From the IMG/VR virus record IMGVR_UViG_3300014519_000020: 6,911 nucleotides of DNA; one strand, 5' to 3'. Made by a program: the position numbers and the translations under genes. This document shows positions 1,403 to 6,648 of this stretch, piece by piece. The stretch is from a virus. Lineage: Duplodnaviria > Heunggongvirae > Uroviricota > Caudoviricetes. Each line of letters begins with the position of its first letter. Within the stretch, counting starts at the first letter, position 1. The notes beneath the pieces were generated by a model that worked only from the letters and a program-made list of their open reading frames with translations, had not been told where the DNA came from and did not search any database.

Positions 1403-1756
1403 TTATCGTCGCCGGTTAACAGCGGGTGGTTGCCCACGGTTGAGCCAGAGATAACAGCTGCCCCCGTCATCCGGAGAAACACGATCCACCCAGAACATCT
1501 CGCCGTTAATGGTCAGCGTGTCACCACGCCGCACGGCACGCACCGTATCCGTCCGCACAAATAATGACGGGCTGCTTCCTTCAATACGGACCCCGCCACC
1601 GGCAAAACCCAGCGACTCCGGATCGTCAAAAACCCCCTGAACTTCGCCGCCACGCTGTGCTCCCGAGGTGAACTGCGCACAGAGCCCCATCACTTCAACA
1701 ATCGTGCTGTCCACCCCGGCAAGGGCAGCATCAAAGGCATTCTGAAAATCACGCAT
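1403..1756 (-). CDS. FII: Head-tail joining protein (gpFII-like), 117 aa
   Basis: Track ORF 1403..1756. MRDFQNAFDAAL...GVRIEGSSPSLFVRTDTVRAVRRGDTLTI...FWVDRVSPDDGGSCYLWLNRGQPPAVNRRR matches lambda gpFII (117 aa) along its length. Start overlaps the FI stop by 8 nt. Confidence 0.93.
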   Translation of the reverse strand: MRDFQNAFDAALAGVDSTIVEVMGLCAQFTSGAQRGGEVQGVFDDPESLGFAGGGVRIEGSSPSLFVRTDTVRAVRRGDTLTINGEMFWVDRVSPDDGGSCYLWLNRGQPPAVNRRR

Positions 1757-2132
1757 GCTCAGCCGTTCCGTGCTGTATCATGGCTGTCGCCAGTGGTGAT
1801 GGCACCATAACACGCATGCCCCGGTACGTCAGTTCAACGGGACGGCCTGTCTCCGGGCAATACCCCATCACATGCAGGCATTTCCGCACACGGACCGCTT
1901 TAACATCATCCGTAGCATCAGTGTTGTGCAACTGCTCACCATCGTCTGTGTGATTTTGATCAGCCCCGCTCTCATCAGAGTGCATAATGCCCTCCGGGGA
2001 AACAGCAAGCTCCTCTTCCCACTCAGACACACGTTGAGCAATATCCGCAGCACTCCCCGACATATCCGCCTCGCGCCCCAGCAGGCCAGCCAGTTGACGA
2101 AGACGATTCAGATTTTCTTCTTTTGTTGCCAT
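1749..2132 (-). CDS. FI: Head assembly / DNA-packaging accessory protein (gpFI-like), 127 aa, with an acidic central linker
   Basis: The track ORF runs 1749..2180, but I place the start at the internal ATG at 2132-2130 (MATKEENLNRLRQLAG...). It is preceded by AGGAGG 5 nt upstream and aligns with the lambda gpFI N-terminus (MTKDELIARLRSLGEQL...). The 16 extra upstream codons run through the terminator-like hairpin after E. Middle region is acidic and poorly conserved; C-terminus has weak similarity to lambda gpFI. Confidence 0.8.
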   Translation of the reverse strand: MATKEENLNRLRQLAGLLGREADMSGSAADIAQRVSEWEEELAVSPEGIMHSDESGADQNHTDDGEQLHNTDATDDVKAVRVRKCLHVMGYCPETGRPVELTYRGMRVMVPSPLATAMIQHGTAEHA

Positions 2133-2145
2133 CTCAGCCTCCTGT

Positions 2146-2175
2146 GAAAAAAGACACGGGGGCATTTCGCCCCCG
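2146..2175 (-). terminator. Intrinsic-terminator-like hairpin between major capsid gene E and FI
   Basis: On the transcribed (minus) strand, just after the E stop codon (2186-2184): GGGGGC-gaaat-GCCCCC (6-bp all-GC stem, 5-nt loop, about 2158-2174), followed a few nt later by a run of six T (plus-strand A run 2146-2151), then the FI RBS and ATG. Confidence 0.5.
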
Positions 2176-2183
2176 CTCACGGA

Positions 2184-3212
2184 TTATTTCACCTGTACCA
2201 CCACAAACTCATCCGGATCCGGCAGCACCATCAGCGGTGCGGACTGCGTCATGGTGAATTCACGGGCCGGATCGCCCACGGTCAGCCAGTGTTTCGGATA
2301 ACGGGAAGAGGCCACCACACCTTCGGACAACGCCTGCGCATCCTGAATGGCACCATAGCAACGAATGCCCTCTGCTGCCGTATTCCCCAGGACCAGTGTG
2401 CCCTCCGGCAGATAACGTTTTTCGGTACCGTCTTCTGCCACATAAGACGTTTTCGCCACCACAATGGCCAGATCGCCGTAATACCCCTTGAAGGACACCA
2501 CCGCCCCCAGGTCTTTCACTGCCGTTTCGAGTTGTGAATTTGAGCCGCGACGGGTATCCAGTTTTTCGCGGAACAGCTTAAAGCCATTCAGCAGACGCCA
2601 GACCGTACCGTCCATAATGGCGATATTCACAAGGCCGCTGGCCTGATCGCAGTAGAGGTCAATATCATGCGTCGGATCAAACGTATCACGGTCCTGCTCA
2701 GACCATTTTTTACCGTCAGCCTGCTCAATGTTATTTCCTTCAGAGCGCCCGAAATCCACCTCGACAGTATCAAACTGATCCCCTTCCATGGTGTATTTGC
2801 CATACAGCACGGCATTCACCGCCTGCATTTCTTCCACCTGGACAATGGCGTGCTCTTCCTGTTTGAGGTTATCGGTAATGATACGCAGACGACGGTAGGC
2901 CGGGTCGTTCAGCTGAGCCGGATCTTCACCAGGAAGGCGCTCAACCGCCTGCTGGTAATTAAATTCGTGTTTGGGCTTGACGTAGCCCGGACGTAACACG
3001 CGGGTTTCACCACCGCGATGGCGAAGCACTTTTCCTTCAACGATCGGGGAGACATAGGCCGCCACCGGCGTTTTTCCGGTAATTTTGTCCAGCATCACCT
3101 CTTCGGTGTGGAAATTCACCGTACGGCGGAAAAACAGCTCCAGAAACAGCGCACGGAATTTAACTTTTTGTTCGGTATAACCGAGTAACTGGCGGGTCGT
3201 AAACAATCCCAT
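2184..3212 (-). CDS. E: Major capsid protein (gpE-like), 342 aa
   Basis: Track ORF 2184..3212. MGLFTTRQLLGYTEQKVKF...PGYVKPKHE...VKAMYAATIESELD... with long colinear similarity to lambda gpE (341 aa), including the C-terminal ...GDPAREFTM.QSAPLM.L.DPDEFV.VQ. RBS AAGGA lies 9 nt upstream of the ATG at 3212. Confidence 0.95.
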   Translation of the reverse strand: MGLFTTRQLLGYTEQKVKFRALFLELFFRRTVNFHTEEVMLDKITGKTPVAAYVSPIVEGKVLRHRGGETRVLRPGYVKPKHEFNYQQAVERLPGEDPAQLNDPAYRRLRIITDNLKQEEHAIVQVEEMQAVNAVLYGKYTMEGDQFDTVEVDFGRSEGNNIEQADGKKWSEQDRDTFDPTHDIDLYCDQASGLVNIAIMDGTVWRLLNGFKLFREKLDTRRGSNSQLETAVKDLGAVVSFKGYYGDLAIVVAKTSYVAEDGTEKRYLPEGTLVLGNTAAEGIRCYGAIQDAQALSEGVVASSRYPKHWLTVGDPAREFTMTQSAPLMVLPDPDEFVVVQVK

Positions 3213-3240: not shown

Positions 3241-3262
3241 TCAGGCCAACGCGGTGGCCTGA
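3241..3262 (-). promoter_or_regulatory. Perfect 8-bp inverted repeat (stem-loop) in the D-E intergenic spacer
   Basis: Plus strand tcaggcca-acgcgg-tggcctga (3241-3248 / loop 3249-3254 / 3255-3262). It sits between the D stop (3270-3272) and the E RBS. On the mRNA it is followed by CUGAUUUCUU, which is U-rich but not a clean U-tract. Confidence 0.3.
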
Positions 3263-4256: not shown

Positions 4257-5159
4257 AGTGCCTCCTCTGACATTACTGTTCAGCGCCGTGGCCATCACAC
4301 TGATGGCATCCGACGCATTGATTAATTCATCCGCCAGCCCGGCCTCAATGCCGGACTGACCTTCAAAAACGGCAGCCTCTGTTCCCGTGACCGCATCAAC
4401 AGACAGACCGGTATACATCGCCACTTTTTCGGCAAACATCCGGCGCGCCGCATCAATCCGCTGCTGCATGTCCTGGCGAACCTCTGCCGGCAACGCTTCA
4501 AACTGATTGCCATCCACCTTGTGCGCTCCTGAGTAAATCAGCGTGATATCCACACCGGCCTGCGCCAGATGACCGGCATAGCTGACATGGCTCATCATCA
4601 CGCCAATGGAGCCGATACGGGATGTCTGGGTAACCAGCCGTCGGGAGCAGGCCGACGCCAGCAGCATGGCTGCAGAACAGGCCGTGTCATTGCACAGTGC
4701 CCAGACCGGCTTCTGCTGACGGAGGCGGTAAATCATGTCAGCACAGTCAAACGCACCGGCGGCCTGCCCGCCCGGACTGTCAATGTCCAGCAGTACACCC
4801 CGCACCTGGCTATCTGCCATTGCCTGCTGAAGACAGGCGACAATGCCGTCATAGCCTGTTATTCCGGAAAATGGCCGCATACCCCCCAGCCGGTGCACCA
4901 GCGTGCCGGTCACCGGCAGTACCGCAATACCGTTCACCACCCGGTAAACACGGGCCGGTCGTTTACCTCCGGCCATGTACTCGTCCGTTTCAGCCAGCAT
5001 TCCGGGTGCATCAAGCTGTACCTGCTGTTGTGGTACCGAAAGACTTGCTGCCCCCATCTCGCGCCCGAGCGCGCAAAAGAAAACCCGCGCACAGGCGGGC
5101 TCCAGAAGCAGCGGTTCATTGAATGCTGCTGCAATAATGTGTGAAAGATTACGTCTCAC
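3654..5159 (-). CDS. C: Prohead protease (gpC-like; S49/SppA-ClpP-type head maturation protease), 501 aa, with C-terminal scaffold (Nu3) domain
   Basis: Track ORF 3654..5159. The start codon is GTG at 5159-5157, overlapping the portal stop. N-terminal ...IAAAFNEPLLLEPACARVFFCAL..., ...GIAVLPVTGTLV..., ...KPVWALCNDTACSAA.LLASACSRRLVTQTSRIGSIGVMM.H..., ...ITLIYSGAHKVDGN... are colinear with lambda gpC (439 aa). It is about 60 aa longer than lambda gpC, which the repeat expansion in the C-terminal part accounts for. Confidence 0.9.
   Translation of the reverse strand: MRRNLSHIIAAAFNEPLLLEPACARVFFCALGREMGAASLSVPQQQVQLDAPGMLAETDEYMAGGKRPARVYRVVNGIAVLPVTGTLVHRLGGMRPFSGITGYDGIVACLQQAMADSQVRGVLLDIDSPGGQAAGAFDCADMIYRLRQQKPVWALCNDTACSAAMLLASACSRRLVTQTSRIGSIGVMMSHVSYAGHLAQAGVDITLIYSGAHKVDGNQFEALPAEVRQDMQQRIDAARRMFAEKVAMYTGLSVDAVTGTEAAVFEGQSGIEAGLADELINASDAISVMATALNSNVRGGTMPQLTATEAAVQENQRVMGILTCQEAKGREQLATMLAGQQGMSVEQARAILAAAAPQQPVASAQSEADRIMACEEANGREQLAATLAAMPEMTVEKARPILAASPQANAGPSLRDQIMALDEAKGAEAQAEQLAACPGMTVESARAVLAAGSGKAEPVSASTTALFEHFMANHSPAAVQGGVSQASEDGDADVKMLMAMP
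3811..4222 (-). repeat. Three tandem imperfect direct repeats (about 140-150 bp each) inside the C/Nu3 coding region
   Basis: DNA units starting near 3811, 3952 and 4103 share the pattern gccagNaNNgcccgggc...tcat.cc...gccagctgttcacg.cc.ttcgcttc.... They encode three copies of a roughly 45-50 aa motif: R.MGILTCQEAKGREQLATMLAGQQGMSVEQARAILAAA / ADRIMACEEANGREQLAATLAAMPEMTVEKARPILAAS / RDQIMALDEAKGAEAQAEQLAACPGMTVESARAVLAAG. Confidence 0.75.
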
Positions 5160-6648
5160 GTGGTGTTGTCTCCTCTTCCGGCCTGCGACTCTCCGCTATC
5201 TGCTGCTGATACGCCTGCGCTATCCACACCGGACGTGAGAGTCCGGCTTTTTCCCGCTCTGCAGATTCCCTGACCTGCTGGCGGAAAATGTCCTGATAAT
5301 CCTCGCCCATCAGCGCCAGCTCTTTCTCATACGTGCTCAGTCCGGCCTCAATGCGCATCACTGATTCCTGAACCTCCTTGAGCCCGTCAATGGCCATTCT
5401 TCCGGCTCCAATCCACTCAGCCCGTGACCAGGCTGATCGCGCCTGATAAAAATCAAAACGCGCCCGTGGCGGACGAATAATCCCCCGAAGAAGTGCCTCT
5501 TCCAGCCAGCAGGAAAACATCTGCGTGGCCAGCCGGGACGCAATAAATTTTCGCCGCCCCATAAAATAGCGCCACGACTCATTGGCGGATGCGCGGGCAC
5601 TTGAATAACTGACCTTCGAGTAATCACGGGACAACTGTTCGTAGGAAACGCCAAGACCGGCGGCGATATACCGCAGCAGCGCCTGTTCAAGCGCCGAAAA
5701 TCCATTGTCTGAATCCTGCGCGGTCTGAAGTTTCAGATCATCACCGGGGAAAAGGTGCGGAATTTTGACACCGCCCAGCGTCACGCTATTCGTGTCATAC
5801 CAGGTGGAGAACTTCTCCAGAATATTAATAAGCGGATTATCCTTCTGCCCCTGCGGCGCACCGGCGATATATTCAAAGGCCTTTTCGGTATCAAGTTCAC
5901 TTTCAATCGTCGCTGCATACATCGCCTTCACTATGGCCGACTGAAGCTGTGTTGCCTGCAGGGAATCGAGCATCTTCAGCCGTTCCATTACGCTGTAAAA
6001 CTGATTGGCCCCACGGGTCTGCCCGTCCTCCACCGGCTCGAAAATATGCAGCATAGCCGGACGCCCGGTGGGAAGTTCACGCGGGATCCGTTCCCATCGT
6101 CCACTCCCGGAGCGAGGAAAATCATCCTCACAGATATGGTACGCAACGGCACGACCATATCGATCAACCTCCACACCGGCCCGCAGAAAACGGTTCCCGA
6201 TACCGTGTCCTGGCGTGTCCACCCGTTTCGGACTCACGGCTTTAAAACGCGTACGAAACAGTTGCGTGCTCTCCGTATCCCAGACCGGCTGCACAAAGAT
6301 TTCGCCGTTAAACGCATGAACGCCCACACCTTCACGGATAAATTCCGTGAACGTGCGTTTCCCTTCCACGTCGATCTCGCCAAACATCCCTTCGGCGTAT
6401 TCCGACCAGGCCGCCTCCACCTCATCGACAAAACTTTTTGCCGCAGTCTCCCGCATCCCCAGCCAGCGCCAGTTCGGACGGTAGCTGATCAGAAACATAT
6501 GCCCGACAATATGATCCTTATGCAGGGCCACCGCATTAGCCGCTATCCCGTTATTGCGCACCAGATCATCTGCCCGGGCATTCCCCAGACGCAACGCAGG
6601 CAGCAGGGCTGCATCGGCACTCTGCGCCGGTGGCAACCACTCCGCCAT
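5149..6648 (-). CDS. B: Portal protein (gpB-like), 499 aa as an intact ORF; the ancestral N-terminus is separated by an in-frame TAG
   Basis: Track ORF 5149..6648. Extensive colinear similarity to lambda gpB: ADAALLP...RGNARADDLVRNNG, ...FEPVEDGQTRGAN.FYSVME..K.LD.LQ.TQLQSAIVKAMYAATIESELD, ...LLRYIAAGLGVSYEQLSR.Y...SYS.ARASANESW.YFMGRRKF.ASR, ...WIG.GRMAIDGLKEVQE.VM.IEAGLSTYEKE. The first ATG (6648) falls about 30 codons inside the region homologous to lambda gpB. Confidence 0.9.
   Translation of the reverse strand: MAEWLPPAQSADAALLPALRLGNARADDLVRNNGIAANAVALHKDHIVGHMFLISYRPNWRWLGMRETAAKSFVDEVEAAWSEYAEGMFGEIDVEGKRTFTEFIREGVGVHAFNGEIFVQPVWDTESTQLFRTRFKAVSPKRVDTPGHGIGNRFLRAGVEVDRYGRAVAYHICEDDFPRSGSGRWERIPRELPTGRPAMLHIFEPVEDGQTRGANQFYSVMERLKMLDSLQATQLQSAIVKAMYAATIESELDTEKAFEYIAGAPQGQKDNPLINILEKFSTWYDTNSVTLGGVKIPHLFPGDDLKLQTAQDSDNGFSALEQALLRYIAAGLGVSYEQLSRDYSKVSYSSARASANESWRYFMGRRKFIASRLATQMFSCWLEEALLRGIIRPPRARFDFYQARSAWSRAEWIGAGRMAIDGLKEVQESVMRIEAGLSTYEKELALMGEDYQDIFRQQVRESAEREKAGLSRPVWIAQAYQQQIAESRRPEEETTPRET

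What the first reader, a model, noticed from the sequence alone, without database searches (positions are those of the whole stretch)
2146..2175. Terminator-like GC hairpin plus U-tract directly downstream of the major capsid gene
In the 47-nt gap between the E stop and the FI start there is a 6-bp all-GC stem with a 5-nt loop, followed by a run of six U. That is the canonical shape of an intrinsic terminator, sitting in the middle of what should be one antiterminated late operon. The likely roles are a partial terminator or a 3' stability element that raises the level of capsid-gene mRNA relative to downstream genes. The FI RBS (AGGAGG) follows immediately.
Basis: seen in the sequence. Interest (0 to 1): 0.4.

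Follow-up and report, generated by a model that had tools for sequence, protein, structure and literature searches.

The report
Terminator-like hairpin after phage capsid gene
A strong RNA hairpin followed by a run of U sits just after the major capsid gene of a phage-21-like prophage; it is real and evolutionarily maintained, but it is the local version of a stem-loop that phage annotators already mark after the capsid genes of lambda, HK97 and P22, and whose role has never been measured.

Summary
On the minus strand, 7 nt after the E (major capsid) stop codon, lies an 8-bp stem (7 G-C pairs and one G-U; 2176-2169 pairs with 2163-2156). It has a GAAAU loop, a GUC spacer and U6 (2152-2147), followed by the FI ribosome-binding site and ATG (2132). 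The gap is 51 nt, not 47. Core stability is -16.8 kcal/mol. A hairpin this strong with such a T-rich tail turns up in only 2% of shuffles of the window.

The hairpin is identical in phage 21. The surrounding region occurs in 1552 of 5426 complete E. coli genomes. Across E-family capsid genes of 29-100% protein identity, 21 of 22 hairpin sequence clusters (19 families once obvious duplicates are merged) carry a hairpin at this spot, with compensatory changes. A T-rich tail is enriched (12/19 families) but missing in 6/19.

Public annotation already marks equivalent elements. HK97 has a "putative terminator" after its capsid gene. P22 has a stem-loop "similar in location to stem-loops in HK97 and lambda".

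Best reading: a terminator-type hairpin that is mostly read through by Q-modified polymerase and then protects capsid-gene mRNA from 3' decay. Leaky termination and fail-safe termination remain live rivals. No RNA 3'-end data could be reached. New member of a known kind; low interest.

The parts
2184..2186 (-). Stop codon (UAA) of the major capsid gene E (ORF 3212-2184)
   Evidence: Pfam PF03864
2156..2176 (-). Core hairpin GCGGGGGC-GAAAU-GCCCCCGU: 8 pairs, 7 of them G-C, with a 5-nt loop
   Evidence: -16.8 kcal/mol; identical in phage 21
2153..2155 (-). GUC between the core stem and the U-run. In the extended fold U2154 and C2153 pair with A2177 and G2178, and G2155 bulges.
2147..2152 (-). 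Run of six U
2138..2143 (-). Shine-Dalgarno AGGAGG of FI. It is partly paired (GGA) with UCC at 2183-2181 in the predicted fold of the isolated gap.
1749..2132 (-). FI gene (DNA-packaging protein FI, 127 aa), ATG at 2132
3241..3262 (-). Sister element: terminator-like hairpin UCAGGCCA-CCGCGU-UGGCCUGA followed by CUGAUUUCUU, in the D-E gap upstream of E

Best explanation
[quoted passage not shown] It is the phage-21-type version of the stem-loop found after capsid genes in lambda, HK97 and P22.

Proposed mechanism:
1. During lytic growth, late-operon RNA polymerase carries the Q antiterminator and mostly reads through the site. (Inferred from established knowledge of lambdoid Q proteins.)
2. 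The hairpin then folds in the finished transcript, 7 nt beyond the E stop codon. (Shown: it is thermodynamically strong and positionally conserved.)
3. When the downstream, less heavily translated RNA is cut, or in the minority of transcripts that do terminate, 3'-to-5' exonucleases stall at the hairpin. The E-containing segment therefore outlives the FI-and-tail segment, which raises capsid mRNA relative to downstream genes. (Inferred.)
4. The matching hairpin after D would do the same for the decoration-protein segment. (Inferred.)

The same hairpin plus U-run would stop any polymerase that lacks Q.
For: - The hairpin is real and strong.
- Position is conserved while sequence turns over. From 139 loci, 79 distinct downstream sequences fall into 22 hairpin clusters. 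Of these, 21 have a hairpin of dG <= -8 within about 35 nt of the E stop, against 26% of 70-nt control windows inside E (Mann-Whitney p = 6e-12).
- Compensatory changes occur. G-C becomes A-U in the 21-type stem of L107/L006. U-A becomes C-G and A-U becomes G-C in the lambda-type stem (5 double-change cells, reached by 6 of 500 shuffles).
- The hairpin persists where there is no U-tract (6 of 19 families, e.g. L008, L011, L053, L056, L079). The shared function is therefore hairpin-dependent rather than termination-dependent.
- Extra-stable loops (UUCG, GAAA) are common.
- The stem starts a median of 10 nt after the stop codon. Little unprotected RNA is therefore left between the last ribosome and the hairpin.
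- A second conserved hairpin follows D, the other protein needed at about 400 copies per head.
- Specialists list the role of such intra-late-operon terminators as unknown.
Against: - No transcript 3'-end, half-life or abundance data for this or any lambda-type E-FI junction could be reached.
- The T-rich tail is strongly enriched: 12 of 19 families have >= 5 T in 9 nt, against 3.3% of background 9-mers. A pure stabiliser would not need it.
- From my own knowledge, not retrievable here: lacZ-fusion work on lambda late genes (Sampson, Hendrix, Huang and Casjens, PNAS 1988) attributed most of the differences in late-protein yield to translation initiation. That leaves little for mRNA-level effects to explain.
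- FI is itself made in fair amounts in lambda (own knowledge), so a strong E-to-FI step is not obviously needed.
Confidence: 0.42

Rival explanations
1. Leaky terminator. Even Q-modified polymerase terminates here at some modest frequency, so the downstream head-completion and tail genes receive fewer transcripts than E.
For: - Canonical geometry: a G+C stem, a 5-nt loop and U6.
- T-rich tails are enriched about 20-fold over background across families.
- There is a precedent for a terminator immediately after the capsid gene in T7-like phages.
- HK97 annotators call the equivalent element a putative terminator.
- Partial termination is one of two roles suggested for phage L and P22.
Against: - 6 of 19 families keep the hairpin with <= 2 T in the next 9 nt.
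- The first three residues after the core stem are GUC rather than U, which should weaken termination.
- A similar hairpin plus T-rich tail sits before E, in the D-E gap. That would cut E transcripts, contrary to need.
- Q-loaded polymerase is known to ignore intrinsic terminators over more than 20 kb (established knowledge).
Confidence: 0.22
2. Fail-safe insulator. The element is fully read through by Q-modified polymerase. Its job is to stop polymerases that entered the late region without Q, from spurious promoters or read-in, so that structural genes stay silent in the lysogen.
For: - This role was suggested explicitly for phage L and P22.
- It explains why terminator geometry, U-tract included, is kept inside an antiterminated operon.
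- It explains why several such elements are spread along the head genes (D-E gap, E-FI gap; several in HK97).
- The module sits as a prophage in 29% of complete E. coli genomes, so silence in lysogens matters.
Against: - No sigma-70-like promoter is predicted anywhere in the window, so there is nothing obvious to insulate against.
- It does not explain the preference for the boundaries of the two most abundant head proteins.
- It does not explain the hairpins that lack a U-tract.
Confidence: 0.2
3. Translational device for FI. The sequence just after the E stop codon pairs with the FI Shine-Dalgarno, so FI is translated mainly when a ribosome terminating on E opens the structure.
For: - In the isolated gap, the minimum-energy fold pairs 2183-2177 with 2147-2140, covering GGA of the Shine-Dalgarno (-22.9 kcal/mol, ensemble frequency 0.42).
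- Lambda's gap is also predicted to mask its GGAGGAG, though with a different partner.
- The median predicted pairing probability of the FI Shine-Dalgarno over 59 sequences is 0.63.
Against: - The partner strand differs from family to family and often lies in the FI coding region.
- Close variants (L088, L095, L107) lose the lower stem without any compensating change.
- No control distribution was computed for the 0.63 figure.
- In the 71-nt context the fold with the lower stem has an ensemble frequency of only 0.06.
Confidence: 0.07
4. No function: a chance inverted repeat, or a relic of a recombination junction between the conserved E gene and the mosaic FI gene.
For: FI diverges sharply just downstream of the hairpin between this window and phage 21, so a mosaic boundary lies nearby.
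Against: - Only a 2% chance expectation in shuffles of the window.
- 21 of 22 hairpin sequence clusters keep a hairpin at this position.
- Compensatory substitutions occur.
Confidence: 0.03

Closest known systems
Lambda E-FI stem-loop (AUGGCCC-UUCG-GGGCCAU, NC_001416 about 7165-7182)
   Same: Same operon, same gene junction, same strand and the same distance from the E stop. It is a G+C stem followed by a pyrimidine-rich tail and then the FI ribosome-binding site.
   Different: The stem sequence is unrelated. The loop is a UUCG tetraloop rather than GAAAU. The tail is weaker and interrupted (UGUUUCUCU). E and FI are not in the same reading frame in lambda.
HK97 'putative terminator' after major head gene 5, and P22 'stem_loop' after coat gene 5
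   Same: A G+C hairpin plus a T-rich tail, 5-7 nt after the capsid-gene stop, inside a single antiterminated late operon. HK97 has GGGGGCGGG-GAAA-CCCGCCC UUUU; P22 has AGGGGC-UGCG-GCCCCU UUCUUU. The P22 record says it is 'similar in location to stem-loops in phage HK97 and phage lambda'.
   Different: The capsid protein families and downstream genes differ. The function is untested there too: 'their roles are not known'.
T7-group terminator immediately downstream of the major capsid gene (T-phi; LUZ100)
   Same: A terminator placed directly after the capsid gene, which limits transcription of downstream structural genes.
   Different: It acts on the phage's own single-subunit RNA polymerase. 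There is a dedicated promoter in front of the capsid gene and no Q-type antitermination. 3' ends have been measured experimentally there, but not here.
Intercistronic mRNA-stabilising hairpins in bacterial operons (e.g. REP elements in malE-malF; puf operon hairpins). Cited from my own knowledge.
   Same: A stable hairpin just after the cistron whose product is needed in excess. The proposed action is a barrier to 3' exonucleases.
   Different: Those elements have measured effects on segment half-life. REP elements are a repeated sequence family, whereas this hairpin is a single-copy, locally evolving element with a terminator-like U-run.

Membership tests
Intrinsic (Rho-independent) terminator | G+C-rich stem of about 5-14 bp with a 3-8 nt loop | tested here: met
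   8 pairs (7 G-C), 5-nt loop, -16.8 kcal/mol
Intrinsic (Rho-independent) terminator | U-rich tract directly 3' of the stem | tested here: met
   U6 at 2152-2147. It lies 3 nt (GUC) after the core stem, or directly after the extended 10-pair stem with one bulge. The first residues after the core stem are not U, so only moderate strength is predicted (inference).
Intrinsic (Rho-independent) terminator | Located downstream of a stop codon on the transcribed strand | tested here: met
   7 nt after the E stop codon, on the coding strand of the late genes
Intrinsic (Rho-independent) terminator | Produces RNA 3' ends, i.e. releases RNA polymerase in vitro or in vivo | not testable with these tools
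   No RNA 3'-end data were reachable. The published Term-seq on lambdoid prophages is deposited in GEO only.
Post-capsid-gene stem-loop of lambdoid late operons (lambda, HK97, P22) | Hairpin within a few tens of nt after the major capsid gene stop, inside the late operon, followed by the next head gene | tested here: met
   21 of 22 E-family hairpin clusters have one.
Post-capsid-gene stem-loop of lambdoid late operons (lambda, HK97, P22) | Structure conserved while sequence is replaced | tested here: met
   19 independent stem sequences at the same position. Compensatory pairs.
Intercistronic mRNA 3' stabiliser | Upstream RNA segment has a longer half-life or higher level than the downstream segment, dependent on the hairpin | not testable with these tools
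   Needs a rifampicin chase or RNA-seq on wild-type and stem mutants.
Any curated RNA family (Rfam 15) | Match to a covariance model | tested here: not met
   No hit at E <= 1 anywhere in the window

The most novel reading that the evidence does not exclude
The two conserved hairpins that bracket E (the D-E gap and the E-FI gap) together define a discrete, unusually long-lived capsid-gene RNA cut out of the 25-kb late transcript. In the 21-type phages, the strand just after the E stop additionally masks the FI ribosome-binding site, so that FI synthesis is metered by ribosomes finishing E. This would add an RNA-level layer of stoichiometry control to a lambda late operon long held to be governed by translation initiation alone.
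Probability: 0.1. Interest if true: 0.5.

Novelty: new member of a known kind. Interest (0 to 1): 0.2.

Why it matters
This is a very common element: the region occurs in about 29% of complete E. coli genomes. It belongs to a class of intra-operon terminator-like hairpins that phage biologists have annotated for 25 years without knowing what they do.

The survey adds one modest point. In the lambda E capsid family the hairpin is maintained through repeated sequence replacement, even where the U-tract is lost, and a twin sits in front of E. That sharpens the choice between termination and RNA stabilisation and makes it testable with one Term-seq and half-life experiment on an induced lysogen.

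It does not change the understanding of late-gene control unless that experiment shows a sizeable effect.

Tried and rejected
- Rfam scan of the whole window at E <= 1: nothing.
- Literature, all 10 searches used. I found no paper with 3'-end mapping or RNA half-lives at the lambda or phage-21 E-FI junction.
- The lambda ribosome-profiling paper and the 1988 lacZ-fusion paper are not held.
- The EHEC Term-seq study used lysogenic conditions, and its data are only in GEO.
- The lambda CRISPRi study says nothing about this site.
- N-terminally extended FI starting at GTG 2180 (ORF 1749-2180): rejected. There is no ribosome-binding site, the homologues' starts align at the ATG at 2132, and annotated FI starts there.
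- Bidirectional terminator: rejected. The plus-strand copy is followed by UCACGGAUUA, which is not a U-run.
- RNase III site: rejected, because the stem is too short (inference).
- Conserved masking of the FI Shine-Dalgarno: examined. The partners are not conserved, so it is kept only as a low-probability rival.
- Covariation within the lambda-type family alone is modest. The argument rests on turnover between families.

Full report
**What the window is.** The minus strand carries the head-to-tail late genes of a lambdoid, phage-21-type (Jouyvirus-like) prophage.
- Gene order: portal B (6648-5149), protease/scaffold C-Nu3 (5159-3654), decoration protein D (3617-3270), major capsid protein E (3212-2184), FI (2132-1749), FII (1756-1403), Z and U.
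- Pfam confirms D, E, FI and FII.
- The E/FI region is 98% identical to Escherichia phage PhiR12_2_star and about 90% identical to phage 21.
- A 171-nt piece spanning the finding occurs in 1552 of 5426 complete E. coli genomes, where only the two coding genes are annotated.

**The observation.** The minus strand reads UAA UCCGUGA GCGGGGGC GAAAU GCCCCCGU GUC UUUUUU CAC AGGAGG CUGAG AUG.
- The core stem has 8 pairs (7 G-C plus G-U), at 2176-2169 with 2163-2156, and a 5-nt loop.
- ViennaRNA adds A2177-U2154 and G2178-C2153 with G2155 bulged. That places U6 (2152-2147) directly at the stem base (-17.7 kcal/mol, z = -3.67, 1 of 200 shuffles as good).
- The window's terminator scan ranks it first.
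- In 150 dinucleotide shuffles of the whole window, a contiguous hairpin of dG <= -15 followed by >= 6 T in 10 nt appeared in 2% of shuffles.
The gap is 51 nt rather than 47, and the stem has 7 G-C pairs rather than 6.

**Is it maintained by selection?**
- Phage 21 has the identical hairpin. Lambda has a different one at the same place, AUGGCCC-UUCG-GGGCCAU followed by UGUUUCUCU.
- I collected E-family capsid loci from one genome per species and from IMG/VR, using an alignment of 19 E proteins. I then read the sequence after each E stop codon.
- 139 loci gave 79 distinct downstream sequences, from E proteins 29-100% identical to the window's.
- Clustering the hairpins gave 22 sequence clusters, or 19 after merging obvious duplicates. 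Of the 22, 21 have a hairpin of dG <= -8 (median -14.2) within about 35 nt of the stop. Only 26% of 70-nt control windows inside the E gene do so (Mann-Whitney p = 6e-12).
- The stems are mutually unalignable. Examples: GCGGGGGC/GCCCCCGU, AGGCCUGA/UCAGGCCU, GGCGGG/CCCGCC, GGCGGGG/CCCGCC, GCACCACGGUC/GGCCGUGGUGC, GUCACACC/GGUGUGAC.
- Many stems carry UUCG or GAAA loops.
- Within the 21-type, L107 and L006 show a clean G-C to A-U compensatory change.
- Within the lambda type, two outer pairs show double changes (5 cells, reached by 6 of 500 shuffles; 92% of cells paired against 34-59% when the partner is slid).
- The hairpin is therefore a selected feature, not an accident of this sequence.

**The U-tract.**
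- In 12 of 19 independent families, at least 5 of the 9 nt after the outermost G-C pair are T. Background 9-mers reach this in 3.3% of cases.
- In 6 of 19 families there are two T or fewer, and the next gene's ribosome-binding site follows the stem directly (L008, L011, L053, L056, L079, L080).
- Terminator geometry is therefore favoured but not obligatory, whereas the hairpin nearly is.
- The stem begins a median of 10 nt after the stop codon.

**Neighbouring elements.** I scanned the coding strand of 33 representative loci for strong hairpins. Two more positionally conserved sites appeared.
- One is in the D-E gap, 1049-1094 nt before the E stop. In the window it is 3262-3241, UCAGGCCA-CCGCGU-UGGCCUGA followed by CUGAUUUCUU. 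In lambda it is GCCGC-CUGU-GCGGC followed by U7. E is thus bracketed by terminator-like hairpins.
- The other lies about 55 nt inside the C gene and may only reflect a conserved peptide.
- The D-E and E-FI gaps are the two largest intergenic gaps in this part of the operon. The C-D gap is 36 nt, and the remaining genes overlap or nearly abut.

**What is already known.**
- The HK97 RefSeq record annotates a "putative terminator" at 5192-5213, directly after major head gene 5. It annotates others after the portal, tail-terminator and major-tail genes.
- The P22 record annotates a stem-loop at 6102-6119 after coat gene 5, noted as [quoted passage not shown]. Their sequences have the same architecture.
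- The phage L genome paper states that a putative terminator lies at the end of the procapsid module inside the single late operon. [quoted passage not shown] It offers partial termination, or stopping spurious non-antiterminated transcription, as possibilities (PMC8022706).
- T7-like phages have a terminator immediately after the capsid gene (PMC10134795).
- Neither phage 21's GenBank record nor the PhiR12 records annotate this hairpin.
- The kind is therefore known, and this is an unannotated member of it.

**Mechanism.** No 3'-end or half-life data could be reached, so the mechanism is inferred. I favour a terminator-type hairpin that Q-modified polymerase mostly reads through and that then acts as a 3'-exonuclease barrier for the E segment (0.42). 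Three observations support this:
- the hairpin outlasts the U-tract in evolution;
- it sits close to the stop codon of a very heavily translated gene;
- a twin follows D, the other high-copy head protein.

A terminator in front of E would be counterproductive if termination were the point. Two things count against this reading. The enrichment of T-rich tails suggests termination is selected. The classical conclusion (own knowledge, Sampson et al. 1988) is that translation initiation explains most late-protein ratios.

The rivals are:
- leaky termination (0.22);
- fail-safe termination of polymerases lacking Q (0.20);
- a translational device that masks the FI ribosome-binding site (0.07; searches show predicted masking, but with non-conserved partners);
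- no function (0.03).

The first three readings (stabiliser, leaky terminator, fail-safe terminator) are not mutually exclusive.

**Verdict.** This is a new member of a known kind, of low interest, with a clear experiment that would settle the role.

Noticed in passing
window 3241-3262, minus strand (D-E gap): A second terminator-like hairpin, UCAGGCCA-CCGCGU-UGGCCUGA followed by CUGAUUUCUU, sits between D and E. A hairpin with a T-rich tail occupies the same gap in nearly all E-family loci examined, including lambda (GCCGC-CUGU-GCGGC followed by U7). The capsid gene is therefore bracketed by such elements.
   Followed up: partly
window about 5083-5098, minus strand (inside C, about 55 nt after its start): An intragenic hairpin CCCGC-CUGUGC-GCGGG followed by UUUUCUUUU is found at the equivalent position (-2690 to -2917 from the E stop) in most loci. 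It encodes the conserved peptide EPA(C/Y)ARVFFCAL, so it may be a by-product of protein conservation.
   Followed up: no
window 2130-2186, minus strand: E and FI are in the same reading frame, separated by a single UAA, and the frame stays open through the hairpin (ORF 1749-2180). Read-through of that one stop would give an E-FI fusion. The protein database holds a few single-copy predicted proteins with both PF03864 and PF14000 (P0005, P0102, P0108, P0112), probably from assembly errors. Lambda's E and FI are not in frame.
   Followed up: no
window 2140-2183, minus strand: In the isolated gap, 2183-2177 (UCCGUGA, just after the E stop) is predicted to pair with 2147-2140 (UCACAGGA), covering part of the FI Shine-Dalgarno. 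Lambda's FI Shine-Dalgarno is also predicted to be masked, but by its pyrimidine tract. The partners are not conserved among close variants.
   Followed up: partly
loci L012-L027, L049, L052, L055-L075 (genome-contig hits): Many short, low-coverage contigs in assemblies of unrelated organisms carry the lambda E-FI sequence. Examples are Kitasatospora, Bradyrhizobium, Paenibacillus, Enterococcus, Prevotella and Corynebacterium. Twenty loci share an identical downstream sequence. This is almost certainly contamination from lambda DNA used as a laboratory standard, not prophages.
   Followed up: no
window 1749-2132 compared with phage 21 (L001 1669-2043): E and the hairpin are near-identical to phage 21, but FI diverges within about 20 nt of its start (the megablast match splits into two pieces with 85% coverage). 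A mosaic junction therefore lies just downstream of the hairpin.
   Followed up: no
hit H21, MT713136.1 Aeromonas phage AP1, 250152-250396: A 254-kb Aeromonas phage record holds 245 nt that are 96% identical to the region spanning the end of D, the D-E gap and the start of E, in an unannotated stretch near its end. This is odd for a jumbo phage of another host and may be a chimeric assembly.
   Followed up: no
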